IMG/VR virus record: IMGVR_UViG_3300028833_000065
DNA length: 64,000 nt
Source: a virus
Lineage: Duplodnaviria > Caudoviricetes
Direction: 5' to 3' (one strand)
The position numbers were made by a program, and so were the translations under genes. Position 1 is the first letter of the stretch. Every line of letters begins with the position of its first letter. Shown here in pieces: positions 7,444-22,757 of this stretch. The notes below the pieces were generated by a model. That model was not told the origin of the DNA, ran no database searches, and worked only from the letters and a program-made list of their open reading frames with translations.

Positions 7444-7538
7444 CTTGACAGTGCGGAAATTTAGATGTATAACATCTAAAAATTTGAATTGACATTCTTA
7501 TTATTTAGTAGTATACTTACCTTGTTCTCAGGAAGGAG

Positions 7539-7847
7539 ATGACTATAATGAAGCGAATTGTTAAGAAGCGAATTGTCTTGTATTGCCCTTGGGAAGATGA
7601 AGAAATTATTGGCACAGAAGAGTATGATAGTTCCATACCAGACGAAGATATTCTTAATGCTTTACATGAACAGGGGAAGACTATGTGGCTTCCGACTTAT
7701 CCTGACTATGATGAACTTTGGCTTATGCTACCAGACAATGGTATAATGTTGCCACATTATAAGTTTGGTGTGGATGAATTTTATGTTCAGATACCGACAT
7801 TTTGGGATAAGATAAAAGATGCGCTGTTTGGACGGAAGGAGAGGTAA
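7539..7847 (+). CDS. Hypothetical protein (inverted cassette 1)
   Basis: Promoter TTGACA(7489)...TATACT and RBS GGAAGGAG. Confidence 0.7.
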   Translation: MTIMKRIVKKRIVLYCPWEDEEIIGTEEYDSSIPDEDILNALHEQGKTMWLPTYPDYDELWLMLPDNGIMLPHYKFGVDEFYVQIPTFWDKIKDALFGRKER

Positions 7848-7849
7848 AA

Positions 7850-8062
7850 ATGTTTAAAATTGGCGATAAAGTGATGATTGATAATGAGGAACGCTTAGTT
7901 GGTTATATTGTAAGTATAACCATTGACCCGTTGGAAGAATATAGTGTAAAGACAGAAACTGAGTTCAACTTTATTACTTATGTGGTTCGTGTCTTCAAGC
8001 CGTTTTATGTTAATGGATACTCGGACTTCTATCGTATGAGTGATGATTTGACAAGGGTTTAA
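7850..8062 (+). CDS. Small SH3/KOW-like hypothetical protein
   Basis: MFKIGDKV start; RBS GGAGAGG; terminator after. Confidence 0.65.
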   Translation: MFKIGDKVMIDNEERLVGYIVSITIDPLEEYSVKTETEFNFITYVVRVFKPFYVNGYSDFYRMSDDLTRV

Positions 8063-8132
8063 GGGCGAAAGCCCTTAAATTATTTTAGATGTATAACATC
8101 TAAAATAAAACAAGGCGGTTGCCCGCCTTATT

Positions 8133-8501
8133 TTAGCTATATAACTGACTGATAGCATTGCGCCATGCGATTTCCAACATTTCATATGGGTCTGCCCATT
8201 CTGCTCGGCCAGTATAATGATTAAGTTTTGTGATATCAATTGCGTTATATTCTTTTAAGTCCGCTTCATATGCGGCGAGAATATTACGCACATGCTCACG
8301 GCTTTCTTGTGCCTTTTTAAGTTCAACATCTTTTACGGGGCCATCTGGTAGCATGTTGGCGCAACCTTCATACTTAATAACCTGGGCGCATTTAGCAATA
8401 AGTTCGTTTCTATGCGCGCTGAGGTCAATGGTCAAACGCCTGTATTCGGTATCCTGAAAACTCCACCAAGTATCTTTTGTCTGTTCTTTCTTAAACAACA
8501 T
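8133..8501 (-). CDS. Hypothetical protein
   Basis: Fills one cassette with promoter, RBS and terminator. Confidence 0.7.
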   Translation of the reverse strand: MLFKKEQTKDTWWSFQDTEYRRLTIDLSAHRNELIAKCAQVIKYEGCANMLPDGPVKDVELKKAQESREHVRNILAAYEADLKEYNAIDITKLNHYTGRAEWADPYEMLEIAWRNAISQLYS

Positions 8502-8681
8502 TTATTTTTCCTTCTTTCTATTGTTCTTGGGAACAATGCTATTATAGCATATTATAGGAAAATTACAAGAAGAAGATTTAGATGTTTTACATCTAAATAT
8601 TCCTGTTGACTTCTCAATTAAATGGAGTATAATATAGCCATGAACTGAAGGAAAACAGTTGAAACCAGAAAGGGAAAGAAA

Positions 8682-9164
8682 ATGACGAAGTATCTGATTG
8701 TGCGGTGTGAAGAACTGATGGACCAGTATGAGTGCGATGCTAACCGTGAACCGATGTTTCTGGTGGATGATTGGACGAAATGGTATCAGGAAAATCATCC
8801 GAATTATCAGTTTGAAGTGTATAAGTTTGAAGATGATAAAGAATGTACTTTGGAAAAGACTTATGAAGAGTCTATGGATTATGGAATGGCATTATACTTC
8901 TGGAATATGGATGATAGCCATGAAGAAGTAGCGCCGACCGTAATTGCGCATTATAAGGGTTATAATCGCGATAAGAAAGTGCCTAATAAAGTGTGGAACG
9001 TTTTTCGACAGGGTGCTTACTGGGCAGACGGTGATGAATTTACTGAAAAGGACTTTAAGAATGACTTGAGAAGTTGCGGATATGTTGCTTGGGATGATAA
9101 GGAGCATAAGAAATTTTGGGTATATGGGTATTATGCGGACGGGCGCTATTGCTTGGGATATTAA
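8682..9164 (+). CDS. Acidic/aromatic hypothetical protein (inverted cassette)
   Basis: Promoter TTGACT(8606)...TATAAT and conserved leader at 8643-8673. Confidence 0.75.
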   Translation: MTKYLIVRCEELMDQYECDANREPMFLVDDWTKWYQENHPNYQFEVYKFEDDKECTLEKTYEESMDYGMALYFWNMDDSHEEVAPTVIAHYKGYNRDKKVPNKVWNVFRQGAYWADGDEFTEKDFKNDLRSCGYVAWDDKEHKKFWVYGYYADGRYCLGY

Positions 9165-9229
9165 GGAGCAAATGCTCCTTTTTCTTTTTTTAATTTTAGA
9201 TGTTTTACATCTAAAATAAAAAGGATGGT

Positions 9230-9490
9230 CTAAAACCATCCATAGAGAAGAGAAAGAAAATAAATATTAAGAACTACGCTTGACAGATGCATCAGAACAT
9301 CATTGATGTGCCGATGCTGTGAGAGGTCTTTACATACGCCGAAAAGCGCGATTGCGAGTCCGAACCATGAGACTTGAAGGCCGAAGAGCATAATCAGGAC
9401 TACATTCAAGATGGTAATTCCGCACCGAACATCATTCCATTCAAAGCGGTAAGGGGTTTCAATTCCGAACCAATTCTTAATCGTTTCCAT
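9230..9490 (-). CDS. Small membrane protein ending in a TAG stop
   Basis: Three hydrophobic segments; the TAG lies in the loop of a terminator hairpin. Confidence 0.7.
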   Translation of the reverse strand: METIKNWFGIETPYRFEWNDVRCGITILNVVLIMLFGLQVSWFGLAIALFGVCKDLSQHRHINDVLMHLSSVVLNIYFLSLLYGWF

Positions 9491-9510
9491 TTCTATTCTC
9501 CATTTTATTC

Positions 9511-9768
9511 TTATTCTTCAAACATACTAATCTGTTCTCCACCGAAGCGCCTGAGTACGACTTCTCTTACCTGTCTCTGGGCATCTTCGTTCCAACTATA
9601 ATAGTTTTCATCATCAAGACCCTTGACATATTCATCAATGGCATCATCCACGACTTGCGTGATAGTTGCTTTTCTTTCTTTCATCAGACGCTCACAACTA
9701 GCATAAATGTCGTCCATATCAATATTCGCGCAATGCCAACTTTCCCATTCAACTTCAATCCAATTCAT
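9511..9768 (-). CDS. Acidic hypothetical protein
   Basis: ORF with RBS AAAGGAG. Confidence 0.7.
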   Translation of the reverse strand: MNWIEVEWESWHCANIDMDDIYASCERLMKERKATITQVVDDAIDEYVKGLDDENYYSWNEDAQRQVREVVLRRFGGEQISMFEE

Positions 9769-10091
9769 TTTTTCGTTCTCCTTTCATAAGATGGCAACTT
9801 TTTCCGTATCAGGGAAAGTTGCCGAAACCTGCCCATCTCCTTCCTTGGGATTACGGGAATTCAATGGGAGCCCGTCAGTTCTCACCTTCCTAAGTCCATC
9901 CCAGTTCCTTGGAACAATTACATTATACTACGATTTTGGAAAATGTCAAGTATTTCTTTTTTATCTTTTTCTGTGAGTGTATCATACAATTCTCTTGCCG
10001 ATGGAGTGAGATAATCATAATGGACTAGGCCCAAAGCGCATAGACAACACAGTTCTTTTTCTTCGGAATTAATTGGAAATAATAGCATTTT

Positions 10092-10346
10092 TCAAACTCC
10101 ACACTTTTCAATTATTTCTTGCGGTTCAAGGTCGGAATGTGCGAGCCAACTAAGCGCACACATGATTGTATCCACATCAGTGATTTTTCCTTCTTGAATA
10201 CGATAGACAAGCATACGGTTGACTTCTTCAATTCTTTCGGCTTCTTTTTTAAGAACATTAGCTTTGTCCGTCATTCCCTGAAGAAGCTGAAATGCCAAGG
10301 TGGAGCAGTCGCAAATATCCATAGATTCAAACTTCATTTCACTCAA
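10092..10346 (-). CDS. Hypothetical protein
   Basis: First gene after the cassette promoter at about 10368-10395. Confidence 0.65.
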   Translation of the reverse strand: MSEMKFESMDICDCSTLAFQLLQGMTDKANVLKKEAERIEEVNRMLVYRIQEGKITDVDTIMCALSWLAHSDLEPQEIIEKCGV

Positions 10347-10671
10347 CTCCTTTCGTTGATGTGCTTATTATAGCATAGAGGAAAGGAACTGTCAAGAAAA
10401 TATATTTAGATGTTATACATCTAATTATCCGATAAAGGAAAAGCCACCCGTCGGTGGCTAAAGGCGCCGAGTGGAACGTTGCGCACCGCCCACTCTATTG
10501 AACTTTTCCTCACTTGTTTATCAGCCAGAAGGGAAAAAGTTTGAAAAGCTGAATCTGTCTGGAAAGGGGCTTTAAGGATAAACCCCTTAGAACCTCTCAT
10601 GGTTCTTGGCTATACGGAGCGCTTACGCATCAATTAAGGCGAGTCAGTTTTCGCCACCAAGAAGGGAAGGT

Positions 10672-10998
10672 TTACGCCTTGCGGTAGGTATTCGGCTTGC
10701 CCTCAATCTTGACGATTTCGTCCTGCCAGAGGTGGGTCAGAGCATACTGAACCTTGCCCTTGGTGATGCCCTCAGGAAGGCCATCGGCGATGGCTTCGTA
10801 GATTTCGCTACAAGTCGCAGGAGAATCGGAGAGGTTGCTGACCAGAAGGTCGTGGAAGGACTCATAGGCTTCAAGGTTTTTCGCCTTGGCATCGGTGCCA
10901 CGGTTGATTTCCTTGTCCAGTTCAGCGAGGATTTCGGCATTGTCATAGCCAAAGTCGGTCAGAGCGGTGCGGATGGTTTCAAAAATGGACTTCTTCAT
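10672..10998 (-). CDS. wHTH DNA-binding protein (paralog 1)
   Basis: PATCSEIYEAI...ITKGKVQYALTHLW...KPNTYRKA. Confidence 0.75.
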   Translation of the reverse strand: MKKSIFETIRTALTDFGYDNAEILAELDKEINRGTDAKAKNLEAYESFHDLLVSNLSDSPATCSEIYEAIADGLPEGITKGKVQYALTHLWQDEIVKIEGKPNTYRKA

Positions 10999-11268
10999 AA
11001 TTTAATTTCCTTTCTGGTTTTGTTAGGGTTTTCCTTCCCTCGATTTCGTATTCATTATAACATGGATTAGGAAGTTTGTCAAGAGGTTGCCGAAAATTTT
11101 CTCCCTTTTATTTTCGGTCATCGGCGAAGAGTCTTGCGTTTCCATGGAGCTTTGTTTCCGCTCTCTTGCTCCCTCTGACAGTTATCATTATACTCAATTC
11201 TGAAAAAAAGTCAACAATTTATTTTTAGATGTTTAACATCTAAAATATTTAATAAGGAAAAAGGGAGA

Positions 11269-11592
11269 TTACTCTCCCTTAATCCGGTAGGTGTTGGTCT
11301 TGCCGACAATCTTCTCAACTTCATCTGCCCAGTAGTTGGTCAGACCGTAAACAATCTTACCACGGGCGAACCCGGTTTCATCTGCGATTTCCTGAGCAGA
11401 AACGGGAAGGGATGCGGACTTCAGAACTTCCATGACCGCATCGTGCATCTCTGCGTAAACCTTGCGGTTGGCATCGGCCTTTTCCTTGCCACGTTCAAGT
11501 TCGGCGGTCAGTTCGGAGAGAATGTCCATCATGTAATCATCATTCTTTTCGGTGAGGTAGGAGACGAGAGACTGGAGAGTGGACTTCTTCAT
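11269..11592 (-). CDS. wHTH DNA-binding protein (paralog 2)
   Basis: PVSAQEIADETGFARGKIVYGLTNYW...KTNTYR; start reassigned to MKKSTLQ after the conserved leader. Confidence 0.75.
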   Translation of the reverse strand: MKKSTLQSLVSYLTEKNDDYMMDILSELTAELERGKEKADANRKVYAEMHDAVMEVLKSASLPVSAQEIADETGFARGKIVYGLTNYWADEVEKIVGKTNTYRIKGE

Positions 11593-11890
11593 AATAATTA
11601 CCTTTCTGGTTTGTTGAGGTTTTCCTTCCTCTGTTGTGTATTCATTATAGCACCTTTGTGCTAGAATGTCAAGGGCTTTTAAAAATTTTGTTCCGAGGTT
11701 ATGGATGTTTGAAATCCACATTTTCCTACATTTTCTCGTTTGGCGCCTTCGGGAAGTGTATTTCCTTCTGTTGGGATTCTCACCTTGTCCCTCGGAACAA
11801 TTGTATTATATGCTAATTTAGGATTTTTGTCAACTACTTATTATTAGATGTATAACATCTAAAAATATTTTAGAATAAAAAAGTATCTCG

Positions 11891-12877
11891 TCAAGCGAGA
11901 TACTGAGCAAGTTCGGCGATAGTATTTTCAAGTCGTGTTGTATACTTAGAAGGTTCTTTATTCTGAAGATAGTTCTGCATTGCGGCAATAACAATTACAA
12001 TTTCATTCGCATCGGGACGCTTCTTTCTCAGAACAAATTCATCTGTTGTTCCGAGTTCACGGAAGGGGAAGAAGATAATTCCGTTAGAGATTGCCGCCTT
12101 TTTAGCAATCTTACTAAGAATGTATGTTTCAATGATAGCATCGTCAAGAGCGGTATGTGCTTCATCAAAATCATACTTGTCGGTCAGATAACGATAAGAT
12201 GCTTCTGCGCTTGTCTTGAAGAATGTTCCGCTTGCGGTAAGCATATCATTCTGAAGGCACTGCTTCTTGTAGGTGGCATTGTTCAGAAGATGCTTTGCGG
12301 CAAGTCCCCAAAGGTCAAACAGAGGGAAGACTTCACCATGGAAACGAAAGATATCTGCTTCAAAATCTTTATCGGGGTCTTTCTGATAGCGTTCATTTGC
12401 GATTTTAGCGCACAGATAACGCTGAGACTGTTCCCATTCAAAATAATCAGGGCTATACAGTTTATTGATATAGAGGTCCGTGAAGGGAATTGCTTTCTTA
12501 AAGTCGAACATACTATTGTATGCTCCGACCGCATCAACCGTGCGGAAGTCTTCCATCATGATTTCAACGACTTCGCGCCAAGGCTTGATAACGGTCTTCT
12601 TTTCTTCAAGCATCTTCAAATAGATTGGGCGCTTTTCCGCATAATATGCGGTATTGAATACGGCAGGAACAGAGAAAGTTTCGGCGATAAGAAACTGTTT
12701 CTTATCCAGAAGTTCGCCCTTGCGATTTGTGATAGTCCATCCAATATCATAGATGAGCGGGCGAGCGATAGCAATCTTCTTTTTCTTTTCCGGGTCATGG
12801 TTGGCGACTTCATCGGCGAACGGGAGGGTAGCGGACTCACAGTCAAGGGTAGCATAACGATTTTCTCTACGGGCCAT
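11891..12877 (-). CDS. DEDDh 3'-5' exonuclease family protein
   Basis: LDCES (ExoI), AYNSMFD (ExoII), EAHTALDD (ExoIII). Confidence 0.85.
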   Translation of the reverse strand: MARRENRYATLDCESATLPFADEVANHDPEKKKKIAIARPLIYDIGWTITNRKGELLDKKQFLIAETFSVPAVFNTAYYAEKRPIYLKMLEEKKTVIKPWREVVEIMMEDFRTVDAVGAYNSMFDFKKAIPFTDLYINKLYSPDYFEWEQSQRYLCAKIANERYQKDPDKDFEADIFRFHGEVFPLFDLWGLAAKHLLNNATYKKQCLQNDMLTASGTFFKTSAEASYRYLTDKYDFDEAHTALDDAIIETYILSKIAKKAAISNGIIFFPFRELGTTDEFVLRKKRPDANEIVIVIAAMQNYLQNKEPSKYTTRLENTIAELAQYLA

Positions 12878-13015
12878 ATCTAATCAATTCCTTTCTGGTT
12901 TTTAAGTGTTGCCTTCACTTTATGGGTAGATTATACCATCGGTTATGGTTGCTGTCAAGCGGCATTATTAGATGTAAAACATCTAAAATAGAAAAATGGG
13001 GCAAAGCCCCATTCT

Positions 13016-13192
13016 TTATTCATCTTCCACTTCGGTAATGCCCTCAACTTCACAATAGCGCGTGAACATATCACGGGCGAATTCTTCAATAGCATCAAGG
13101 TCAATTTCTTCTCCGAGTTCAACTGCGCTCTGGATTGCGGAAAAAGCAACGATACTCATCATGTGGTCTGCGGTGTTCATACTAATAGTCAT
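13016..13192 (-). CDS. Small acidic protein (58 aa)
   Basis: MTISMNTADH...EVEGITEVEDE, behind the conserved leader at 13201-13230. Confidence 0.6.
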   Translation of the reverse strand: MTISMNTADHMMSIVAFSAIQSAVELGEEIDLDAIEEFARDMFTRYCEVEGITEVEDE

Positions 13193-13235
13193 AATAAAAT
13201 CCTTTCTGGTTTGAAGTGTTTTCCTTCACTATATT

Positions 13236-13415
13236 TTAATCATCAAGGATTTGCTGAACATTTTTAACGGCGAGGATTGCTTCATCAAGCAACTTTTCTC
13301 GTTCTGCCGTCAATTCAAATTCATCGTCAAGTTCGGTTCTAATCTTGTCAAGAAAGTCATAGATATCTTCAAAATGCTGGAGTTCATCATCTGTATAAGC
13401 CAATATCTTTTTCAT
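13236..13415 (-). CDS. Small acidic protein (59 aa)
   Basis: MKKILAYTDDELQHFEDIYDFLDK...; RBS GAAAGGG. Confidence 0.55.
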   Translation of the reverse strand: MKKILAYTDDELQHFEDIYDFLDKIRTELDDEFELTAEREKLLDEAILAVKNVQQILDD

Positions 13416-13429
13416 ATTTATACCCTTTC

Positions 13430-13804
13430 TTACTCCGAGACTTCACGAGGAAGAAACTGATTTTCGTCATCCTTTTCTTCCTCTTCCTTTTCCTTGGCGC
13501 GTCTTGCCTTATCCTTGGCAATCTTTTCTGCCTTGGCCTTGGCTTTTTCTGCCTTAGCTTCCTGTTTTGCCTGATAGGCATTGATTTCACTCTGCATGAG
13601 TTCTTCGGCAGTCATGTCCTCACGCTCTTCGGCAACAATTGCGCCGATGCGGACATAGCGCTGAACGCCATTCAAATCGGTCAGAATGATACCCTGCTGA
13701 CGGTCATTGATTTTCTGAAATAAGTCAAAATCGCCTTCTTCAAGTATCTGAAAAACTCTTTCACGCAAATTCTGATCAACCACGGTCTTAGAAATCTGAG
13801 CCAT
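13430..13804 (-). CDS. Hypothetical protein with Lys/Ala-rich tail
   Basis: Distantly similar to 15146 and 18081 (D.NG..RYV.I). Confidence 0.7.
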   Translation of the reverse strand: MAQISKTVVDQNLRERVFQILEEGDFDLFQKINDRQQGIILTDLNGVQRYVRIGAIVAEEREDMTAEELMQSEINAYQAKQEAKAEKAKAKAEKIAKDKARRAKEKEEEEKDDENQFLPREVSE

Positions 13805-13973
13805 AATTTTTTCCTTTCTGGTTTGAGTTGTTTTCCTTCAACTTTCAATGATATTATAATCCATTCTAGGAAAATGTCAAGCATTAACTTTTAGATGTTT
13901 AACATCTAAAATATAAGTTGACATTTTTTTTGAAATGGTATATACTATCGGTGTTGAAAGGAAGGTGCCAATT

Positions 13974-14474
13974 ATGAGAAATAGCTATGAAATCCGTGCT
14001 GAAAAGTTCATCCATCAGATTTTTGATTACATTTGTGAATGTGAAAGTTGGCATCAGTTTAAGCGCGCTGTTGTTCGTTTTAATCTGGAACATGGTCGCA
14101 GGGTGCGTTTTGACCATGGATTGACTCGCGTGTGCTTTATTACTTCCGACTATGTTGTAAAGTATGATTTTGGCACTGAACGCAACATTCACGACTTTGG
14201 CACTTGTAATGATGAAGTCCGTATGTATGCTATTGCTGAAAGGGACGGCTTCGCGCATCTGCTTGCTAAACCTACAATGGTTGAGTATATGGGACATTCA
14301 TTCTGTATTATGCCCCGTATTTATGGGATTGGTAAGTATAGTCATGATGTTGATTGGTATCTTGAAGGCGCAGAACATGATTGGGTTAATAAACATATTT
14401 ATGATTGCCATAACCAGAATTATGGTTGGAAAAATCATCATCCTGTTATCTTTGACTATGCCTGTTGCTCATAA
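13974..14474 (+). CDS. Minimal protein-kinase-like (PKL fold) protein (inverted cassette)
   Basis: GLTRVCF, YVVK, CNDEV, DCHNQN (catalytic loop) and IFDYA (DFG-like). Confidence 0.6.
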   Translation: MRNSYEIRAEKFIHQIFDYICECESWHQFKRAVVRFNLEHGRRVRFDHGLTRVCFITSDYVVKYDFGTERNIHDFGTCNDEVRMYAIAERDGFAHLLAKPTMVEYMGHSFCIMPRIYGIGKYSHDVDWYLEGAEHDWVNKHIYDCHNQNYGWKNHHPVIFDYACCS

Positions 14475-14537
14475 GAGCAACTTTTTATTATTAGATGTAT
14501 AACATCTAAAATAGAAAGGTAATGGGAATAAATCCCA

Positions 14538-14768
14538 TTATCTCATATCAACAACCATGAAGTCATCATTTTCCCAAATCTGACCGTAGTTCTTATCTAC
14601 AAAATCAAACTTTTCTTCTTTTGCTTCGGTAAGCAAGGCCGCCATGCGGTTCTGGAGTTCTTCCTTCTTTGCTTTGCGGGCGCAAATAGCGCGAAGTTCG
14701 GTGATGATATCACGAAGTTCCTGTGTGGTCATGATGTCGGTATCAATAATAACTTTTCCAATTCTCAT
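14538..14768 (-). CDS. Hypothetical protein (paralog of 19914-20168)
   Basis: Shared DTD...EL..IIT.LR.I.ARK...EL motif. Confidence 0.7.
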   Translation of the reverse strand: MRIGKVIIDTDIMTTQELRDIITELRAICARKAKKEELQNRMAALLTEAKEEKFDFVDKNYGQIWENDDFMVVDMR

Positions 14769-14785
14769 TTTTATACTTCCTTTCA

Positions 14786-15034
14786 TTAATCAATAGGGCG
14801 GTTCAATTCTACTTCTTCAATGTAATAAACGCAAGGTGCTATATAATCATTACCTAATGTCTCGTATTCATAGCCATCAAAAGTAAATTCAAACTTTTTC
14901 ATTTCCTCTTCGGTGTAATCCTCTGCTACACGCTCAAGAATTGCTTTCTGTGCTTCGGCGAGAGAAGAATAAACTCCGTCGCCCCAATGCTCATAAGGTT
15001 CAATAATGAATTCTTTTACTGTAAATACCGTCAT
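14786..15034 (-). CDS. Acidic hypothetical protein
   Basis: ORF with RBS AAAGGAG after the cassette promoter. Confidence 0.7.
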   Translation of the reverse strand: MTVFTVKEFIIEPYEHWGDGVYSSLAEAQKAILERVAEDYTEEEMKKFEFTFDGYEYETLGNDYIAPCVYYIEEVELNRPID

Positions 15035-15145
15035 CTCTTACATCTCCTTTCGACATCATGAATTATAGCATAAGATGGAAAAGAAGTCAAAGCATTTATT
15101 TAGATGTCAAACATCTAAACCATATTTCGGGATTCAATCCCGAAA

Positions 15146-15436
15146 TTATTTTTCTTTCTTTTTCTTTGCCATCTTTTCTTCAAATTCTTCCTTATACAGT
15201 TCTGCATTGGCATACCCATCATAAGGAATGTATCCACCCTCACCATTACGAGTACCACGAGGAGTAGAAACTTTAATAACAATCCATCTCTCGTTTCCTT
15301 CTGCGTCTACGCAAGGAATAGCAAGTTCATTGGCACTTACGGGAAGTACATCAGTGTCATACTGCTTGGACAGAAGTTCCTGAATAGAATTGAGATATTC
15401 AGAGCGCAGAAGGGTTTCAAGCTGAGTTTTATTCAT
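15146..15436 (-). CDS. Hypothetical protein (paralog of 18081-18440)
   Basis: NELAIPCVDAEGNER...KVSTPRGTRNG shared. Confidence 0.75.
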   Translation of the reverse strand: MNKTQLETLLRSEYLNSIQELLSKQYDTDVLPVSANELAIPCVDAEGNERWIVIKVSTPRGTRNGEGGYIPYDGYANAELYKEEFEEKMAKKKKEK

Positions 15437-15729
15437 TTACTTTCATCCTTTCGTTAGTCATTAAGAAACATGTAAGAAAATATCAGAAGCATAAAGCCAA
15501 CTATCACAAGGAGAAGAAACGCAGGAATAAAAACACCCCAAATAATTCCCCAAAGCATCAGAATTCCGGCAAGGGCATCTGCTATGTTCATACCGTCATC
15601 TCCTTCCTTTTGACAAGTATATTATAACATAATTTTGAAAAAAGTCAATTATTAAATTAGATGTTTAACATCTAAAAATTCTATTGCTTTTTTCTTGGAA
15701 AGTGATATAATACGCATGAGGTGATAAAG

Positions 15730-16203
15730 ATGAAGCGGTTGACGGTTATTAGGCGGTTCGTTTCAGAAGTGGCATGTGAGAAAGTCGGATTGACAGATGA
15801 TGTTGAATATTGCGCTATGGCGACATTTTCGGGAAGAAAGCGTTATAAAAAGCCGACTATCGGGGTGCCAAAAGATAATTTGATTTGTGAATTACAAGAT
15901 GAAACCACTAAGATTTTTCGTAGAAATTTTACAAGTAGATATTCTGGCGCAAAAGGCTTTGCTAATATCACTTTGGTGTTATTACATGAAGTCGGGCATT
16001 TGAAAACAAGCGAAGAGTTCTGGGGAAATGAAGAAGCAGAAATGCTTGACATGATGATGCGAAGCGCAGTTGAAACGCAAGAAGAGTATATGAAAATTCC
16101 GTCTGAGTATGGCGCAACCGAGTGGGCTATTGGATGGCTACAAGATGCGAACAATCGTTCACTCGCAAAGCGGTTTGAACGGCAGTTCTTTAATGCGGAG
16201 TAA
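15730..16203 (+). CDS. Zincin-like metallopeptidase (HEXXH), inverted cassette
   Basis: LLHEVGH plus downstream E (PSEYGA). Confidence 0.65.
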   Translation: MKRLTVIRRFVSEVACEKVGLTDDVEYCAMATFSGRKRYKKPTIGVPKDNLICELQDETTKIFRRNFTSRYSGAKGFANITLVLLHEVGHLKTSEEFWGNEEAEMLDMMMRSAVETQEEYMKIPSEYGATEWAIGWLQDANNRSLAKRFERQFFNAE

Positions 16204-16276
16204 ATCCGCATTCCTTTTATTTTAGATGTTTTACATCTAAAATTAAATAAAAGAAAAAAAGGGGATATATCCCCTT

Positions 16277-17041
16277 TTATTCTTCTTCAACACCAGTAAA
16301 ATTGATAACATCTTTGCGAGTAATCTTTTTCAGATATGTGCCCTTGAACACAACTTCTTTATCAAACTTAATTGTGAAGGGCTTGGGCGCGACCCGTTCC
16401 AGAATGCGCTTTACTTCATAATCAGTATTCCACTTTGCGCCGAGAGTATCAATACAATAAGTCAGAATAGCGGTTTCAATGTCTACATCATACAGACCCA
16501 TATGCGCTTCTTCAAAAGTATCATCTTCGGCAATATACCTATAAACAACTTCTGCGCTTCCTTTGTAGTTGCCTGTATCAGTAAAGTAATTATTAATCTC
16601 GCAATAGTGCTGATATTGTGGAGTATTTGTAATGTATTGCGAAGCATAGCCCCAAATGTCATGGATAGCGATAGTATCAAAAGGATTAATACACTTGAAC
16701 CAGTCGCAATTAAAGGAGATAACTTTGTCATCAAAGTTGGAGTTGTAGGCATACGCATCAGTGATACCATACTTCTGAATATCACGATGAATCTCACGCA
16801 TTACATAGCCCCACTTGTCCATCGTGGCCTTGTGCTGGCGCATAAGCTGAACATACTGAGGACGCTTCTGAGCATAGTATGCTGATTCAAACAGCGGAAG
16901 GTTGTGCCAAATCTGCTCAATAACAAAGTGCTTGCGCTCAACCGTCATGTGCTGACAGGTGTCATACACGCAGTATCCGATATCATAGCAAAAGGGCTTG
17001 TCCAGACCAGTAGTTTCCGTGTCCATAATCATTACATTCAT
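16277..17041 (-). CDS. DEDDh 3'-5' exonuclease family protein (paralog of 11891-12877)
   Basis: MDTETTG, AYNSNFD, EEAHMGLYD. Confidence 0.85.
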   Translation of the reverse strand: MNVMIMDTETTGLDKPFCYDIGYCVYDTCQHMTVERKHFVIEQIWHNLPLFESAYYAQKRPQYVQLMRQHKATMDKWGYVMREIHRDIQKYGITDAYAYNSNFDDKVISFNCDWFKCINPFDTIAIHDIWGYASQYITNTPQYQHYCEINNYFTDTGNYKGSAEVVYRYIAEDDTFEEAHMGLYDVDIETAILTYCIDTLGAKWNTDYEVKRILERVAPKPFTIKFDKEVVFKGTYLKKITRKDVINFTGVEEE

Positions 17042-17177
17042 ATAAGTACCTTTCTGGTTTGATTTGTGGTATCCTTCCACTTCATTGCGTTCCGAGGAAC
17101 AAGTGTATTATATCATATTCTGGGAAAAATACAAGAAGAATATTTAGATGTTATACATCTAAGAAATAAAAATGGAA

Positions 17178-17627
17178 TTACTCCGCATGGAGTAATTCCG
17201 CCAGAACTGACAGAATGTCAGAAGGTTCATATGCTTCGCCAGTCCAGTCGTTTCTGATTTCTTCATTATCATCAAACAGAATGTCATTTTCCGTTTTCAG
17301 GAAACTCTGCTTTGGTGTGCCATAGTCTACAATTTCCATGATATCAAATGAAACTGAGGTCAGATGCTGATGAAGCCAGTCCATTTTTGCGTTTGCCACT
17401 GCTTCATTGTATTCAGCGTTTCCATCCTTAGAAGTCCAGCTGATGATACCGATGCCGTAGCCATGACTTTGGAGCTTATTCAGATACCGAGCAAGCAGAC
17501 TCATGTTCAGCATGACGGCCGCTTCTTCGTAGGGTGTAGGGTCAAAAGCACGCAGACGGGGAAGCCAATTCTCTACCGAATACAGGTCGGCGATTGTTCC
17601 ATCCATATCAAACCAAATCATTCTCAT
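17178..17627 (-). CDS. HAD-family 5'(3')-deoxyribonucleotidase-like protein
   Basis: WFDMDGTIADLY, IISW, K, ILFDD. Confidence 0.8.
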   Translation of the reverse strand: MRMIWFDMDGTIADLYSVENWLPRLRAFDPTPYEEAAVMLNMSLLARYLNKLQSHGYGIGIISWTSKDGNAEYNEAVANAKMDWLHQHLTSVSFDIMEIVDYGTPKQSFLKTENDILFDDNEEIRNDWTGEAYEPSDILSVLAELLHAE

Positions 17628-17755
17628 TTTCTTTCTCTCTCTTTCTGTTCCCTTGGAACGAGTATATAATAGCATAGTTTTGGGAAAAGGTCAAGTAATA
17701 AAATTTAGATGTTTAACATCTAAAAATCATAATCAAATGCGGCAAGGCCGCATTT

Positions 17756-17950
17756 TTACCTATCTACAAGAATCTTGATAATTGCCACAATAAGAGCAAT
17801 CAGCAGAACAACGCTCCATGTAATCCACAACGGCGCGAGAACCCAAACCCAACTCCAGTTGATAACGCCGCAAAGTTTAAGCACGATGAAAGCAATAGTG
17901 AGCAGTCCGAAGAAACCAATTCCATTGTTCTTAATTGTCGTGTTTTCCAT
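17756..17950 (-). CDS. Small phage membrane protein
   Basis: GFFGLLTIAFIVLKLCGVINWSWVWVLAPLW, a widespread phage TM family. Confidence 0.75.
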   Translation of the reverse strand: MENTTIKNNGIGFFGLLTIAFIVLKLCGVINWSWVWVLAPLWITWSVVLLIALIVAIIKILVDR

Positions 17951-18080
17951 TTTAATTCCTTTCTGGTTTTATGGAGTATCCTTCTCCTTTCAACACCGAT
18001 ATCATATCATAGTTTTAGGAATTGTGCAAGTATATATTTTAGATGTTATACATCTAAGAATTAAGAAGAAATGAAACCGC

Positions 18081-18440
18081 TTATGCGGTTTCCTTTTCCT
18101 TTTCCTTTTCGGCGCGCTTCTGCTTATCGCGCTCAATCTTCTCCTGCTTCTTCTTTTCGGCGGCGGCCTTCTTTTCCTTCTTCTCTTCTACTTCCAGTGC
18201 GTATGCCTCAGCGGCGGCATACGCATCATACGGGTCATAGCCGTTGCCGTTGCGAGTGCCACGAGGGATAGAAACCTTAAAGACCACAAAGCGCTCATTG
18301 CCCTCAGCGTCCACGCAGGGAACGGCCAGCTCGTTGGAGCTTACAGCGAGAGCATCAGCATCGCAAGCATTGGACAGGGCATTAGACAGGATAGTAAGAT
18401 ACTGTTCACGCAGGGCATTCTCAAGTTCGGTTTTAGTCAT
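18081..18440 (-). CDS. Hypothetical protein (paralog of 15146-15436)
   Basis: Same core motif as 15146-15436, with a K/E-rich tail. Confidence 0.75.
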   Translation of the reverse strand: MTKTELENALREQYLTILSNALSNACDADALAVSSNELAVPCVDAEGNERFVVFKVSIPRGTRNGNGYDPYDAYAAAEAYALEVEEKKEKKAAAEKKKQEKIERDKQKRAEKEKEKETA

Positions 18441-18580
18441 AATTTTTTCCTTTCTGGTTTCTGAGGTGTCCTTCCTCTTTACAGTTAGTATTATACTCTG
18501 ATTCGGGATAAAGTCAAGTATTAGTTTTTAGATGTTTTACATCTAAAAATTAAAATAAAATAAGTCGGATGTTATCCGAC

Positions 18581-18784
18581 TTATCGTTCTAAAATATCAT
18601 AAATCTTCAAAATCTGTTCAACAGTAGGAATATCCTTGTCTCTACAAGTAATAGTGAAACGGATAGTATCAGAAGAAATGCTAGGCTTGAAATCTTCAAC
18701 GCTACATCCAACACGATCAACGACGGTATTCATAATATACCGTCCAATCTGGTTGCGAGGAACATAATAGCTGCGAGTAATCAT
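18581..18784 (-). CDS. Hypothetical protein
   Basis: RBS GGAGG; last gene of a multi-gene cassette. Confidence 0.6.
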   Translation of the reverse strand: MITRSYYVPRNQIGRYIMNTVVDRVGCSVEDFKPSISSDTIRFTITCRDKDIPTVEQILKIYDILER

Positions 18785-19105
18785 CTTTCAATCCTCCAAT
18801 TCAAATCTTGATAATTCGTTGGCAATAATTTGATTTGCCCAAATTAGTCTTTTATAAAAACTAAAATCATCGGGAGCATCGACGAGTAATTCTATTAAAG
18901 CTTTGTGGAGTTCTGCTTTTTCTTTACGCTGTTCTTGCGTCATTATTCCCAATCCTTTCCCTTATACTTCGGTTTCTTAAAACGCTTATCTGGAATAACT
19001 TTGGTCGCGGGATTTACATTGCCCCAAGTCTTACGCTCGCTCTGGAATACTTCCACCCAAGTTTTGGTTTTCTTGGTCTTTTTCATTTTCAACCGCTCCT
19101 TCTTA

Positions 19106-19369
19106 TCAATCAAGTGGCGCTTCAATCCAACTGTATTCGCCCCATTCGCCATAGTCAAGAATCCATTCAATGTAATCTTCCCATGCCTGTTCCCGTTCAT
19201 CTTCCGCATATTCGCGGTCTTCTGTCCAGTAGAGAAAGTCTCGTTCTTCAGAATAATAATGGTCATTCATATACTTATGGCACTGCTGACGAATAGGTTC
19301 AATAGAAGTATAAACATGGTCGGGTTCACCCTGATAGGACAGAACATATACAACTTTACTCATACTCAA
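19106..19369 (-). CDS. Acidic/aromatic hypothetical protein
   Basis: First gene after the cassette promoter. Confidence 0.65.
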   Translation of the reverse strand: MSMSKVVYVLSYQGEPDHVYTSIEPIRQQCHKYMNDHYYSEERDFLYWTEDREYAEDEREQAWEDYIEWILDYGEWGEYSWIEAPLD

Positions 19370-19479
19370 TTGCTCCTTTCCTTATTGACAAGATAATTAT
19401 AACATAATTTAAGTAAAAGTCAAATATTTATTTAGATGTATAACATCTAAAAAATATAAAGTTGGCGCATATGCCAACT

Positions 19480-19791
19480 TTAACAGTCATCAGTATAGCA
19501 ACCTGCATACGGGTCAAATCCCATTTCAATATCGTATTCTGGTTCTTCGTATCCAAAGTGTCCCTTGGCCCATTCAATTTCTTCTTCTGAGAAATCTTCT
19601 TTCTCATCGCTGGGCGCATCAGCTTGTTCCCATTCTTCCCAGCTTGTCCATACACTAAGCCAGTCATCACAGTCCTCGCAAGGGTCATCAACATGGCATA
19701 CGCCATTCTTATCGCAGTAGGGGCAATCCCAACCGTTCACGGGGCAATAGGTGAGTTCACCGTTATAAGTTCCGGCCTTACTATCTCTCAT
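19480..19791 (-). CDS. Acidic Cys-rich hypothetical protein
   Basis: CPYC...CEDC; C-terminal GFDPYAGCYTDDC. Confidence 0.7.
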   Translation of the reverse strand: MRDSKAGTYNGELTYCPVNGWDCPYCDKNGVCHVDDPCEDCDDWLSVWTSWEEWEQADAPSDEKEDFSEEEIEWAKGHFGYEEPEYDIEMGFDPYAGCYTDDC

Positions 19792-19913
19792 TTTAGTCCC
19801 TCCTTTGTTCCTCTTGGAACTGTGATAATGATATCATACTTTGATAGAAAAAGCAAGAGAGTATTTTAGATGTATTACATCTAAAATGGAAGAAGCTGGG
19901 AAACCCAGCTTGC

Positions 19914-20168
19914 TTACTGAACCATGATTTCCATCAGCGTACCGTCGTAGTTTTCCAGCCCATAAACGCCCAGATGCAGCTCGCGTGCTTCCGCCAGCAG
20001 CTCGTTAAACTGGTTGTTCAGCTCCTGCGCACGATGCTTGCGCGCACGAATCTTACGCAGACCAGTAATAATCTGGTCAAGCTCTTCAATGGAGAGGTCA
20101 TCGGTATCAAAAGACACAACAGCGGACACGGGGTTGACGATTTCACTCAGTTTCTTTTCGGGTTTCAT
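19914..20168 (-). CDS. Hypothetical protein (paralog of 14538-14768)
   Basis: Shared helical motif; fills one cassette. Confidence 0.7.
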   Translation of the reverse strand: MKPEKKLSEIVNPVSAVVSFDTDDLSIEELDQIITGLRKIRARKHRAQELNNQFNELLAEARELHLGVYGLENYDGTLMEIMVQ

Positions 20169-20287
20169 AATCTTACTTCCTTTCGTGAGGTGATGGTTAT
20201 ATTATACTCAGATTTTAATTTTTGTCAAACATTTATTTTAGATGTAATACATCTAAAAATTATACACGGGATATTATCCCGTGGAAT

Positions 20288-20596
20288 TTACTTCCAAATT
20301 GTTTTTCCGTTTTCAGTAAACAACGACTGATTGCGGTCAACACGTTTGCGCAGATAGGGCGGAATTTTCTTTGTTCCATTGTATACAGCTACCAGCTCAC
20401 GGAAGGTAGTTACATACATTGTAATCACTTTCAGCTTGTCCTCTGTTTTTACCAGCGTAATACCAGTGTCGGTGATACACAGATAAACGCCGTTCTGATA
20501 CTTTTCGCGCACAACCTGCCCCAAGCCAATATCATTGATAATATGCTGTACCCGGTTCGCTCTTTGTACTTCGCAGTGATAAGTCATTGTTGTCAT
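20288..20596 (-). CDS. Hypothetical protein
   Basis: Fills one cassette; RBS GGAGG. Confidence 0.7.
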   Translation of the reverse strand: MTTMTYHCEVQRANRVQHIINDIGLGQVVREKYQNGVYLCITDTGITLVKTEDKLKVITMYVTTFRELVAVYNGTKKIPPYLRKRVDRNQSLFTENGKTIWK

Positions 20597-20713
20597 GGTT
20601 CATACCTCCTTTTGATGGTGTAAGTATATCATAAAATGGGAAAATTGTAAAGAGTAATTTTTAGATGTTTTACATCTAAAAACTATAATGAAATAAGCGC
20701 CAAGGCGCTTATT

Positions 20714-20935
20714 TTACATGATTTCATCAAAAGCCAAGTCAAGCCAATCATCATTTACCATACTCGCAAATTCAGATACCAGCTTGCGCAGAATAGCTCC
20801 AGCCTGCTCATCACTCATCTTGGTCAAATCCAGCCCAACATGCTTTTTCAGCCGCCGCATCAGGAGCTTGAGCATGTCGCAGTAAGTGTATTCTTTGTCA
20901 TCTTCTTCAAAGTAAACAGTCGCATTGAGTTCCAT
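20714..20935 (-). CDS. Hypothetical protein
   Basis: Fills one cassette; conserved leader at 20944-20973. Confidence 0.7.
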   Translation of the reverse strand: MELNATVYFEEDDKEYTYCDMLKLLMRRLKKHVGLDLTKMSDEQAGAILRKLVSEFASMVNDDWLDLAFDEIM

Positions 20936-21079
20936 ATTTTAGTCCTTTCTGGTTTGGGAGGTTGTCCGTCCTCTTTACAATTAGTATTATATTCATTTTA
21001 GGAAAAAAGTCAAGTAATATTTTTTAGATGTATAACATCTAAAATTATAATGAAATAAAGGGATTTCTCCCTTTATTTA

Positions 21080-21325
21080 TTAATCCAAATATCCATGGAG
21101 TTCTACATATGAAATTCTATTATTAATAGGATTAATAGTGCGCTGTGCTTTCCGCCCCAGCCTTTCTTCCAGCTTGGCGAGTTCTTCTTCAGCTTCCTTT
21201 ACGGACACAGTGTTAGCAAGTTCCAGCTTGCAGTCCTCTACGCATACGTAGATAGTAGCGCAAGAGATAGAAGGCTTGTCTTCGAAATAGGTAATCATTA
21301 CACTCATATAAGTATTATACTTCAT
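21080..21325 (-). CDS. Hypothetical protein
   Basis: Start reassigned to MKYN after AAAGGAG. Confidence 0.65.
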   Translation of the reverse strand: MKYNTYMSVMITYFEDKPSISCATIYVCVEDCKLELANTVSVKEAEEELAKLEERLGRKAQRTINPINNRISYVELHGYLD

Positions 21326-21450
21326 TGCCGTTTCTCCTTTCGTGTCCCTCTTAGGAACAACTATATTATACTCCAATTTGAAAAAAAGTCAAACATTATT
21401 TTTAGATGTATTACATCTAAAAAACATAAAAGGGGAAAATTCCCCTTTTA

Positions 21451-21723
21451 TCATTCAATTTCACCAGTATAAATATTATACTTGACATTATCATTATAAA
21501 TCTTTTTTGCCAACTGGTAAGTCATGCCGCGCTCGCGCATGAACCAACCGATGTGTTTGATGGTTGTCATGCTGTACAGTCCATTGACGATCATCCAGCC
21601 TTCCGGGTCAATCTCAATAACGGTAGTGGTGTAGCTTACCAGTTGAACAGTACCGTCCTCAAATGTCCGAACGTAGGTGCTTGCATACTTGTGACCATTG
21701 TTAAGCGATACAGTGTAATTCAT
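21451..21723 (-). CDS. Conserved phage hypothetical protein
   Basis: LVSYTTTV...YSMTTIKHI motif. Confidence 0.7.
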   Translation of the reverse strand: MNYTVSLNNGHKYASTYVRTFEDGTVQLVSYTTTVIEIDPEGWMIVNGLYSMTTIKHIGWFMRERGMTYQLAKKIYNDNVKYNIYTGEIE

Positions 21724-21868
21724 GTTTCAATCCTTCTTTCTTTTATTTCGTTCCCCTTGGAACATCTATAGTATACTGCCATTCGGGAAAAATGTCAACA
21801 GTAGTTTTTAGATGTATTACATCTAAAATTAAAATGAAATAATAGGTCCCGTTTCGGGACCTATGGAA

Positions 21869-22024
21869 TTATTCATAATACTCAACGATGTCCCAACCGC
21901 CGGACCAAATTCCGCCAAAGTGTGCGTTGTCCTCTACCCATGCCGCCGCGGCACTGATGGTTTTGAATCCATCTTCAATAATGATGTTCCATTCGATGCT
22001 TACAATACGATAGCGCTTCTTCAT
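21869..22024 (-). CDS. Small hypothetical protein
   Basis: Fills one cassette. Confidence 0.6.
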   Translation of the reverse strand: MKKRYRIVSIEWNIIIEDGFKTISAAAAWVEDNAHFGGIWSGGWDIVEYYE

Positions 22025-22146
22025 CGTTCTTACTTCCTTTCTTTTTGTGTTCCCTTGGAACAACTATATAATACACCATTTTGGGATTTGTGTCAACTTT
22101 TATTTTTAGATGTAATACATCTAAAATTAAAATGAAATACAACGGG

Positions 22147-22401: not shown

Positions 22402-22757
22402 AATATATCCCCTTTCGGGACGGCGGATTATTCCGCCGTCAAATTCGTCTTAGTGTAATAGAGATTGAAATTACCGTATTCTACGGAACAAGGGTCAGTG
22501 ATATCATCATAACCATTTTCTTCGGCATCGGTATAGAGTTCGGTTTCGGGAACGATGTAACCATTTTCTTTGTGCATCCAATAATAGTTTTTCATTTTGT
22601 AATTCCTTCCTTTCTTGTCCCTTCGGACAAGTGTATTATACTACTTTTAGGAAAAAATGCAAGTTTCATTTTTAGATGTTTTACATCTAAAAAACGAAAA
22701 AATAAAATTGAAACAAAAATATAAAGGTTGATATACTCAACCTTTATATATTAATAT

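What the first reader, a model, noticed from the sequence alone, without database searches (positions are those of the whole stretch)
7461..16240. Four cassettes are flipped exactly between adjacent palindromes, leaving promoter-less sites
Seen: 24 cassettes point left, but 7461-8103, 8578-9214, 13891-14509 and 15657-16240 point right. They keep the same internal architecture, with the -35 8-9 bp from the site. As a result, the sites at 8578, 13891 and 15657 have promoters on both sides. The sites at 8085, 9196, 14491 and 16222 sit between two convergent terminators with no promoter, yet are perfectly conserved. Some similar promoters (about 3650, 6880, 9930, 11060, 11650, 25060) have no site. 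Inference: a pure operator would not be retained between terminators. A symmetric recombination site would allow insertion or inversion in either orientation and give exactly this pattern.
Basis: partly seen in the sequence, partly recalled or inferred. Interest (0 to 1): 0.88.

Follow-up and report, generated by a model that had tools for sequence, protein, structure and literature searches.

The report
Palindrome-bounded early-gene cassettes, some flipped
A large rumen-type phage keeps its early genes as small promoter-gene-terminator units separated by one invariant 19-base palindrome; related phages have gained, lost, swapped and flipped units exactly at these palindromes, most likely by ordinary recombination between repeats rather than by a dedicated DNA-flipping enzyme.

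Summary
The window holds 29 perfect copies of TTAGATGT-N3-ACATCTAA. Four units point right, three sites lie between divergent promoters, and four lie between convergent terminators with no promoter. About 32 related IMG/VR phage contigs carry the same arrays (about 800 perfect sites). In them a site sits at 46 of 48 convergent, 18 of 21 divergent and 659 of 904 tandem gene junctions, and the -35 lies 8-10 bp from the site in 86% of tandem sites.

Close relatives differ by site-to-site cassette gains, losses and replacements. In 11 of 11 clean cases the crossover maps at the 19-mer. The gene family of the third flipped cassette occurs in both orientations among distant relatives, always between two sites. 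Near relatives (91-97% identity) keep all four flips.

Five genomes, two of them complete, have no serine or tyrosine recombinase, Y1 transposase or ParB. All four near-complete ones have a Sak4-like annealase.

Best reading: the palindrome is a protein-binding boundary element. The candidate binder is a winged-helix family present in every array. Being the longest exact, self-complementary repeat, the palindrome also guides PeSL-like cassette shuffling in either orientation. A programmed inversion or integron-like system is not supported.

This scan has reported similar cassette arrays on other DNA.

The parts
7461..23795 (.). Array of 29 perfect 19-bp palindromes (TTAGATGT-N3-ACATCTAA) bounding 28 early transcription units
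7461..7479 (.). First site of the array. The rightward promoter of flipped unit 1 starts 9 nt to its right.
7489..8081 (+). Flipped unit 1: promoter 7489-7517, genes 7548-7847 and 7850-8062, terminator 8056-8081
8085..8103 (.). Promoter-less site between converging terminators 8056-8081 (+) and 8135-8106 (-)
8578..8596 (.). Site shared by divergent promoters 8568-8541 (-) and 8606-8633 (+)
8606..9180 (+). Flipped unit 2: promoter, gene 8682-9164, terminator 9163-9180
9196..9214 (.). Promoter-less site between terminators 9163-9180 (+) and 9241-9223 (-)
13891..13909 (.). Site shared by divergent promoters 13880-13853 (-) and 13918-13946 (+)
13918..14481 (+). Flipped unit 3: promoter, gene 13974-14474, terminator 14464-14481. 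Among relatives its gene family is found in both orientations.
14491..14509 (.). Promoter-less site between terminators 14464-14481 (+) and 14540-14520 (-). It is also the left end of a 609-bp cassette that relative 3300001485_000145 lacks.
14510..15118 (-). Cassette (genes 14538-14768 and 14786-15034, promoter 15090-15062, site 15100-15118) present here and in relative 3300021400_000239 but absent from 3300001485_000145. The crossover lies in the right arm of the site.
15657..15675 (.). Site shared by promoter 15648-15621 (-) and a rightward promoter at 15684-15711
15684..16212 (+). Flipped unit 4: promoter, gene 15730-16203, terminator 16192-16212. Its gene family is co-oriented with its neighbours in the three more distant contigs that carry it and flipped only in this window's lineage.
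16222..16240 (.). Promoter-less site between terminators 16192-16212 (+) and 16278-16257 (-)
20680..21042 (-). 363-bp site-to-site cassette (gene 20714-20935) absent from relative 3300001485_000145
10672..10998 (-). Paralogue 1 of the about 108-aa winged-helix family, the candidate protein for binding the palindrome
11269..11592 (-). Paralogue 2 of the winged-helix family. The AlphaFold2 model (pLDDT 92) shows a long helix followed by a winged helix.

Best explanation
The 19-bp palindrome is the junction element of the early-gene array of a TAG-recoded siphophage whose complete relatives are about 165-190 kb. One copy sits at almost every transcription-unit boundary. It lies 9 bp upstream of the -35 of any promoter that leaves it, and a few bp downstream of any terminator that faces it.

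Shown: the four right-pointing units, and about 11% of genes across the family, have orientation switches that always fall on a single shared site. Recent cassette gains, losses and replacements have their crossovers inside the site.

Inferred mechanism: the palindromes are the longest exact repeats in the array and each is its own reverse complement. Homology-guided exchange can therefore join units head-to-tail or head-to-head and always leaves one intact site per junction. The exchange could run between sites in one genome, between co-infecting genomes, or by re-entry of an excised cassette circle. This produces the terminator-site-terminator and promoter-site-promoter junctions. The enzymes are probably the phage's general recombination system, which includes a Sak4-like annealase. 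The process is then PeSL-like modular shuffling, not a programmed switch.

Inferred primary function: the site binds a dimeric phage protein. The candidate is the winged-helix family, with 2-3 copies in each of the five genomes searched. This protein would control the early promoters from about position -54. At promoter-less junctions it would act as a boundary or roadblock, as stoperators do, which would explain why those copies stay perfect.
For: Sites and architecture in the window.

Family-wide census:
- 46 of 48 convergent, 18 of 21 divergent and 659 of 904 tandem junctions hold a site. The few exceptions carry 1-mismatch variants.
- The -35 lies 8-10 nt from the site in 584 of 680 tandem sites and on 40 of 50 sides of divergent sites. 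No promoter-like match lies on 78 of 90 sides of convergent sites.

Exchange at the sites:
- HSP ends pile up at the outer edges of sites.
- Of 36 structural differences in five close pairs, 23 have at least one end at a site, although only about 10% of the array lies that close to a site.
- In 11 of 11 clean indels the switch between parents falls at the 19-mer, with 10-26 nt of identity where the gapless comparison holds.
- The core stays with the cassette about half the time at both ends.
- One cassette family occurs in both orientations with the same internal layout.

Enzymes:
- No Resolvase, Phage_integrase or Y1_Tnp.
- AAA_24 (Sak4-like) in 4 of 4 near-complete genomes, E about 1e-45 to 1e-48.
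- An indel at a 20-27-nt promoter repeat with no site shows that general repeat recombination operates here.

Candidate binder: the winged-helix fold and its presence in 5 of 5 genomes, always inside the arrays.

Precedents: PeSL cassettes (PMC2839356, PMC4122927) and operators/stoperators (PMC9283540).
Against: - No protein has been shown to bind the site. The winged-helix candidate rests on fold and co-occurrence only, and other core array families co-occur equally well.
- Identity of only 10-26 nt is short for efficient homologous recombination, so a site-directed helper cannot be excluded.
- Annealing alone does not readily make inversions.
- The roadblock role at convergent sites is pure inference. 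Selection at the level of mobile cassettes could also keep those sites intact.
- Inter-site distances show no helical periodicity, so looping gains no support.
- There are no read-level data on orientation heterogeneity.
Confidence: 0.55

Rival explanations
1. Dedicated site-specific recombination. The palindrome is the target of an unrecognised phage recombinase or synapsis protein that inserts, excises and inverts cassettes in either orientation, as in an integron or a shufflon.
For: - Crossovers map at the 19-mer in 11 of 11 clean indels.
- Every orientation switch has exactly one site.
- Convergent sites stay perfect across diverged relatives.
- One cassette family occurs in both orientations.
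- The early array is full of proteins of unknown family.
- The best sequence match of the winged-helix family among solved structures is the Hop2 winged helix, at a marginal E of 0.08.
Against: - No serine or tyrosine recombinase and no Y1 transposase in 5 genomes, 2 of them complete.
- All four flips are identical in near relatives at 91-97% identity.
- Four gene families are always flipped, so orientation is inherited, not switching.
- Crossovers fall on either side of a variable 3-nt core, which conventional 2-bp or 6-8-bp staggered exchange would not tolerate.
- There is no sign of target duplication or exchanged cores.
- Indels also occur at repeats that have no site.
- The rigid spacing to the -35 points to another function.
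Confidence: 0.13
2. Operator only. The site regulates the adjacent promoter and nothing else, and the convergent copies are neutral leftovers of recent inversions.
For: The spacing to the -35 is rigid at 9 nt. Half-site variants such as TTGGATGT...ACATCCAA occur in relatives, in one arm or in both, as expected for a dimer operator.
Against: - 46 of 48 convergent junctions carry a perfect site and the other 2 carry 1-mismatch variants or nothing. That is at least as good as promoter-adjacent sites.
- The convergent arrangement next to the homologue of 9230-9490 persists in relatives whose flanking cassettes are only 74-83% identical.
Neutral 16-nt motifs would have decayed over that distance.
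Confidence: 0.07
3. Architectural boundary. A bridging protein pairs neighbouring sites so that each unit forms its own loop or topological domain. Promoter control is secondary.
For: Every unit is flanked by two sites whatever its orientation. The sites are confined to the early region.
Against: Inter-site distances show no helical phasing, although this is a weak test for loops of 300-1100 bp. Nothing identifies a bridging protein. The fixed 9-nt distance to the -35 is not required by this model.
Confidence: 0.12
4. RNA-level element. The palindrome acts as an 8-bp-stem, 3-nt-loop hairpin in read-through transcripts, as a processing or termination signal.
For: It lies just downstream of terminators and would be present in read-through RNA from either strand.
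Against: - The sequence is invariant rather than covarying, and relatives tolerate A/C mismatches between the arms.
- Divergent sites lie upstream of both promoters and are not transcribed.
- The site lies upstream of the start of its own unit.
Confidence: 0.03

Closest known systems
PeSL (promoter-early stem-loop) cassettes of T4-type phages (PMC2839356, PMC4122927)
   Same: Small genes of unknown function are each bracketed by a composite intergenic motif with a sigma-70-type early promoter and a terminator stem-loop. Close relatives differ by insertion, deletion and replacement of these units, with crossovers inside the motif. No dedicated recombinase is known, and the phage's own recombination system is invoked.
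   Different: - Here a separate invariant 19-bp perfect palindrome, neither terminator nor promoter, sits between the two at a fixed 9 nt from the -35 and carries the crossovers.
- Units occur in both orientations, with one shared site at head-to-head and tail-to-tail junctions.
- The phage is a TAG-recoded siphophage with a 4588-aa tape measure protein, not a T4-like myovirus.
- Excised mini-circles have not been tested.
Operator/stoperator sites of cluster A mycobacteriophages such as L5 and Bxb1 (PMC9283540)
   Same: Dozens of copies of one short protein-binding site lie both at promoters and in promoter-less intergenic gaps. This shows that a regulator's sites can be kept away from promoters.
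   Different: Stoperators are 13-bp asymmetric sites, depend on orientation, are bound by a monomeric immunity repressor of temperate phages, and are spread over the whole genome. Here the site is symmetric and confined to the early array, no binder has been shown, and no integrase or partition gene was found.
Integrons (IntI plus attC-bounded cassettes)
   Same: An array of small single-gene cassettes is delimited by a repeated palindromic element at which cassettes are gained and lost.
   Different: There is no IntI-like tyrosine recombinase. The sites are 19-bp perfect palindromes of fixed sequence, not long imperfect attC sites. Every cassette carries its own promoter and terminator.
Invertible-DNA switches and shufflons (Hin/Gin/Cin serine invertases, Rci)
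   Same: Segments are bounded by inverted copies of a short site, and both orientations are seen in nature.
   Different: No invertase gene is present. Orientation is identical in near relatives. The segments are complete transcription units rather than promoter or C-terminal exon modules.
KorB operators (OB) of IncP plasmids
   Same: One short palindrome is repeated at promoter-proximal and promoter-distal positions and bound by a single global regulator.
   Different: No ParB/KorB-type protein was found in 5 genomes. Here there are many more sites and they sit strictly at unit boundaries.

Membership tests
Integron | IntI-type tyrosine recombinase encoded with the array | tested here: not met
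   PF00589 has no match in 5 related genomes, 2 of them complete with terminal repeats.
Integron | Promoter-less cassettes expressed from a common Pc promoter | tested here: not met
   Each unit has its own consensus promoter and terminator.
Integron | attC sites: long imperfect palindromes conserved in structure rather than sequence | tested here: not met
   The site is a 19-bp perfect palindrome, invariant at 16 positions in about 820 copies. The description of attC is from general knowledge.
Invertase switch / shufflon | Serine (Hin/Gin) or tyrosine (Rci) invertase gene | tested here: not met
   PF00239 and PF00589 are absent.
Invertase switch / shufflon | Both orientations coexist in a population or among very close relatives | tested here: not met
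   All four flips are collinear in three relatives at 91-97% identity. Read-level heterogeneity could not be tested with these tools.
PeSL-type regulatory cassettes | Composite intergenic motif with a sigma-70-like early promoter and a terminator stem-loop flanking small genes of unknown function | tested here: met
   The early ORFs have no Pfam family.
PeSL-type regulatory cassettes | Indels and replacements between close relatives with crossovers inside the motif | tested here: met
PeSL-type regulatory cassettes | Excised cassette mini-circles formed during infection | not testable with these tools
   This needs inverse PCR or reads from infected cells (PMC2839356 used inverse PCR).
PeSL-type regulatory cassettes | Host phage is a T4-type myovirus | tested here: not met
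   The tail gene 39920-53683 is a PhageMin_Tail tape measure protein of 4588 aa when TAG is read through. There is no nucleotide match in the reference phage collection.
Operator/stoperator system | The same short site occurs at promoters and in promoter-less intergenic positions | tested here: met
Operator/stoperator system | A cognate repressor binds the site | not testable with these tools
   There is only a candidate winged-helix family.
Operator/stoperator system | Asymmetric site whose orientation follows the direction of transcription | tested here: not met
   The site is a perfect palindrome. The core shows only a mild 2:1 bias (TAA 223, TTA 110) relative to transcription.

The most novel reading that the evidence does not exclude
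The palindromes could be the crossover sites of a phage-borne cassette exchange system run by a protein of unknown family. One possibility is that the winged-helix paralogues act as site-specific synapsis factors for the Sak4-like annealase. Such a system would insert, excise and invert self-expressed early-gene cassettes in either orientation among co-infecting phages. That would be a recombinase-free, symmetric counterpart of an integron.
Probability: 0.13. Interest if true: 0.9.

Novelty: new variant of a known kind. Interest (0 to 1): 0.6.

Why it matters
Early 'takeover' genes are the fastest-turning part of phage genomes, and how they are exchanged is poorly understood outside T4-like phages. 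This family gives an unusually clean case. One invariant, self-complementary 19-mer marks every unit boundary in about 30 genomes, so gains, losses, swaps and flips can be read at nucleotide resolution.

The family also separates two questions that can each be tested. The first is which protein reads the palindrome and what it does at promoter-less junctions. The second is whether exchange needs that protein or only short homology. The answers bear on how phages assemble accessory and anti-defence gene sets, and on the design of modular phage expression cassettes.

Tried and rejected
- Megablast of the region against reference phages gave no match.
- No whole genome is held for the window.
- N4-like hairpin promoters for a giant virion RNA polymerase: rejected, because the 4588-aa ORF is a tape measure protein.
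- ParB/KorB-type binder: no ParB_N match.
- RecT and ERF annealases: absent.
- Target-site duplication or exchanged cores around flipped units: no signal. The identical ATA/ATA and TTT/TTT cores in the window are chance.
- Polarity of the core relative to transcription: only a 2:1 bias.
- Local inversion with both flanks collinear at the nucleotide level: none found. Orientation differences are visible only at the protein-family level.
- Helical phasing of inter-site distances: none.
- Host regulon: the 118 hits in bacterial and archaeal genomes are about the number I estimate for chance (roughly 140 for a 16-base palindromic motif in 596 Gb). The exceptions are three short phage-like MAG contigs and one conserved Bacillaceae locus.
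- The Bacillaceae locus puts the same palindrome upstream of a small DeoR-type HTH gene. Its similarity to the phage winged-helix family is not significant (hhalign probability 5%), so this lead was dropped.
- The search for related loci with the winged-helix alignment failed because it has no conserved stretch to search with.
- A distant homologue's contig returned no DNA.
No result was obtained.


Full report
**What is in the window**

The motif TTAGATGT-N3-ACATCTAA occurs 29 times between 7461 and 23795. Every copy is perfect at the 16 specified bases, and there are no 1-2-mismatch copies. Shuffles give 0.1 matches.

Each copy lies in an intergenic gap. A simple gene caller trained on the arrays, together with the ORF list, puts all genes of the array on the - strand except 7548-7847, 7850-8062, 8682-9164, 13974-14474 and 15730-16203.

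Their promoters start 8-9 nt from the site. Sites 8578, 13891 and 15657 also serve a leftward promoter at the same distance. Sites 8085, 9196, 14491 and 16222 lie between two converging hairpin-plus-T-run terminators and have no promoter-like match on either side. Consensus promoters without a site also exist.

**Context**

To the right of a cluster of DnaA boxes at about 25.3 kb, the + strand opens into long genes only if TAG is read through. One such ORF is 4588 aa and matches the phage tape measure family. The array genes are intact in the standard code.

The element is therefore the early arm of a large TAG-recoded siphophage. None of about 30 early ORFs tested has a significant Pfam family.

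**The array is a family trait**

The exact 19-mer occurs in arrays in about 35 IMG/VR contigs, with 791 copies in 112 fetched stretches. Two of these are complete genomes of 167 and 190 kb. In them, and in the window, the sites are confined to one early region.

I called genes in 32 arrays and classified every gene junction:

| Junction type | With a perfect site | Total |
|---|---|---|
| Convergent | 46 | 48 |
| Divergent | 18 | 21 |
| Tandem | 659 | 904 |

- All 46 convergent sites and 17 of the 18 divergent ones are single. One divergent junction carries two.
- Site-less tandem junctions are mostly operon-internal, with a median gap of 6 nt. Only about 50 have a gap of 80 nt or more.
- The few site-less convergent and divergent junctions carry 1-mismatch variants, with one exception.

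When sites are oriented by transcription, the -35 starts 9 nt after the site in 473 of 680 tandem sites and 8-10 nt after it in 584. The same spacing holds on 40 of 50 sides of divergent sites. At convergent sites, 78 of 90 sides have no promoter-like match.

Two things follow:
- The site is physically coupled to promoters. Its centre lies near -54, over the UP-element zone.
- It is kept just as faithfully where no promoter exists.

**Cassettes are exchanged at the sites**

- In an all-against-all blastn, 24-30% of HSP ends fall at the outer edge of a site, against 3% for random points. The peak is sharp, at 0 to 4 nt.
- Three near relatives of the window (91-97% identity) are collinear through all four flipped units. 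They differ by whole cassettes: window 14510-15118 and 20680-21042 are absent from one relative, and a 336-bp unit is present in another at window site 23515.
- At each such junction the left flank comes from one parental site and the right flank from the other. The switch lies inside the palindrome: the right arm in two cases and the left arm in one.
- Across five close pairs, 36 differences of 100 bp or more were found. Of these, 23 have at least one end within 25 nt of a site centre, although only about 10% of the array lies that close.
- In 11 of 11 clean one-site-versus-two-site events the switch interval lies at the 19-mer. Where the gapless comparison holds, the uninterrupted identity is 10-26 nt.
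- The 3-nt core stays with the cassette about half the time at both the promoter end and the terminator end. Crossovers therefore fall on either side of the core.

**Orientation**

Of 70 gene families with at least four members, 51 are never flipped relative to the array's majority strand, 4 are always flipped, and 15 are mixed. The always-flipped families include those of window units 1 and 2.

The family of unit 3 (13974-14474) has 17 members:
- 6 are flipped relative to both neighbours, in at least three different neighbourhoods.
- 10 are co-oriented with both neighbours.
- 1 sits at a point where the array itself changes direction.

In both orientations the layout is the same: a site, about 65 nt, the gene, about 17 nt, a site.

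The family of unit 4 (15730-16203) has 6 members. It is flipped only in the window and its two near relatives, and is co-oriented with its neighbours in the three more distant contigs.

Orientation has therefore changed repeatedly in evolution, always at sites, but it is stable over the 3-9% divergence of near relatives. No nucleotide-level case of a local inversion with both flanks collinear was found.

**Enzymes**

Five related genomes, two complete and four at least 93% complete, have no match to Resolvase, Phage_integrase, Y1 transposase, ParB_N, RecT or ERF. All four near-complete genomes encode an AAA_24 (Sak4-like) protein, with E about 1e-45 to 1e-48.

One indel between the window and its nearest relative is a 178-bp promoter-plus-hairpin unit. 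It is flanked by a 20-27-nt repeat of promoter and leader sequence and has no palindrome. General repeat-guided recombination therefore operates in this array.

In most relatives the core is TTA or TAA, so the sites are exact repeats of 19-21 nt, the longest available in the array.

**Who binds the site**

Clustering of array proteins gave several families present in most of the contigs. I read motifs for two of them directly from the sequences:
- DEDD-exonuclease-like paralogues (DTETTG motif; window 11891-12877 and 16277-17041).
- A HAD-like protein (window 17178-17627).
- An about 108-aa family with 2-3 copies in each of the five genomes searched (window 10672-10998 and 11269-11592).

An AlphaFold2 model of the 108-aa family, built from 34 sequences, has pLDDT 92. 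It shows a long helix followed by helix-turn-helix plus a beta wing. Foldseek ranks the winged-helix domains of CodY, Z-alpha, MarR and ArsR first, with E of 3e-3 to 5e-2. The best sequence match among solved structures is the Hop2 winged helix, at E 0.08.

More than 1200 metagenomic homologues exist, and some touch DUF6958. This is a reasonable candidate for a dimeric binder of a palindrome, but nothing here shows binding.

**Interpretation**

A unit that flipped as a whole would leave no site at the tail-to-tail junction and two at the head-to-head junction. The family shows one site at both.

The enzymology argues against a programmed, dedicated system and for PeSL-like shuffling (PMC2839356, PMC4122927) with a palindromic twist:
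- no recombinase was found;
- orientation is stable among near relatives;
- crossovers fall on either side of a variable odd-length core;
- indels also occur at other repeats;
- an annealase is present.

Because each site equals its own reverse complement, the same short homology supports joining in either orientation.

That argument is not compelling, because cluster A mycobacteriophages keep repressor sites in promoter-less intergenic gaps, where they stop elongation (PMC9283540).

Convergent sites are perfectly kept here even where flanking cassettes have diverged to 74-83% identity. This shows selection on them. I attribute it to a boundary or roadblock role of the bound protein. Selection at the level of exchangeable cassettes is the alternative.

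**Verdict**

This is a new variant of a known kind: PeSL-type regulatory cassettes combined with a multi-site regulator. Its distinctive features are a separate invariant palindrome at fixed register to the promoter and one shared site at every junction, whatever the orientation.

This scan has reported comparable cassette arrays on other DNA. Most were read as PeSL-like, and one was read as integron-like with a known recombinase site. No such link was found here.

Noticed in passing
window 25586-62000 (+ strand), e.g. 39920-53683: Late and structural genes open only when TAG is read as sense. One ORF becomes a 4588-aa tape measure protein (PhageMin_Tail), which implies an extremely long tail. 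The early array does not need the recoding.
   Followed up: partly
window 25310-25470: A dense cluster of DnaA-box repeats (TGTGGATAA / TTATCCACA) lies at the strand switch and GC-skew turn between the early array and the late operon.
   Followed up: no
window 7425-7442, 25267-25284, 25294-25311: A second palindrome (AGTTAGTTATAACTAACT) occurs three times with 0-2 mismatches, against 0.06 expected by chance. The copies bracket the whole array: one lies just left of the first site and two lie beside the DnaA boxes.
   Followed up: partly
window 11000-11038, 11587-11629, 12876-12917, 13187-13228, 13799-13840, 17040-17078, 17944-17987, 18435-18476, 20930-20971: A conserved leader motif (CCTTTCTGGTTT on the + strand, AAACCAGAAAGG in the mRNA) recurs between promoter and start codon of many array genes. 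It also appears in relatives.
   Followed up: no
L087/L081 (contig 3300021400_000239, stitched coordinates 4800-4977), opposite window 11167-11193: The nearest relative carries a 178-bp insert made of a consensus promoter and a hairpin, with no ORF and no palindrome. It is flanked by a 20-27-nt promoter/leader repeat and may be a small-RNA unit or an emptied cassette.
   Followed up: partly
L134 667-685 and 830-1039; also L130, L142, L144, L145, L149, L150, L159, L171, L175, L178, L184, L187, L146, L170: Bacillus, Neobacillus and Priestia chromosomes carry one copy of the same 19-bp palindrome. It lies downstream of a promoter and a CodY-box-like sequence and about 145 nt upstream of a highly conserved small DeoR-type HTH gene. 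This looks like an autoregulatory operator. No significant homology to the phage winged-helix family was found.
   Followed up: partly
L052 (contig 2061766007_000105) and parts of L021/L053 and L106: Some relatives use half-site variants of the palindrome (TTGGATGT...ACATCCAA), mixed with hybrid and canonical copies. Position 3 of each arm therefore tolerates A or G.
   Followed up: partly
window 127-199: There are three tandem copies of a 21-22-nt unit containing TGGGAA-N4-TCCCA inverted repeats, near the left end of the window.
   Followed up: no
L126, L157, L188: Short contigs binned into Acutalibacteraceae, Oscillospiraceae and Bacillota MAGs carry 2-5 array sites. This is a weak hint that the hosts belong to the Oscillospirales.
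   Followed up: no
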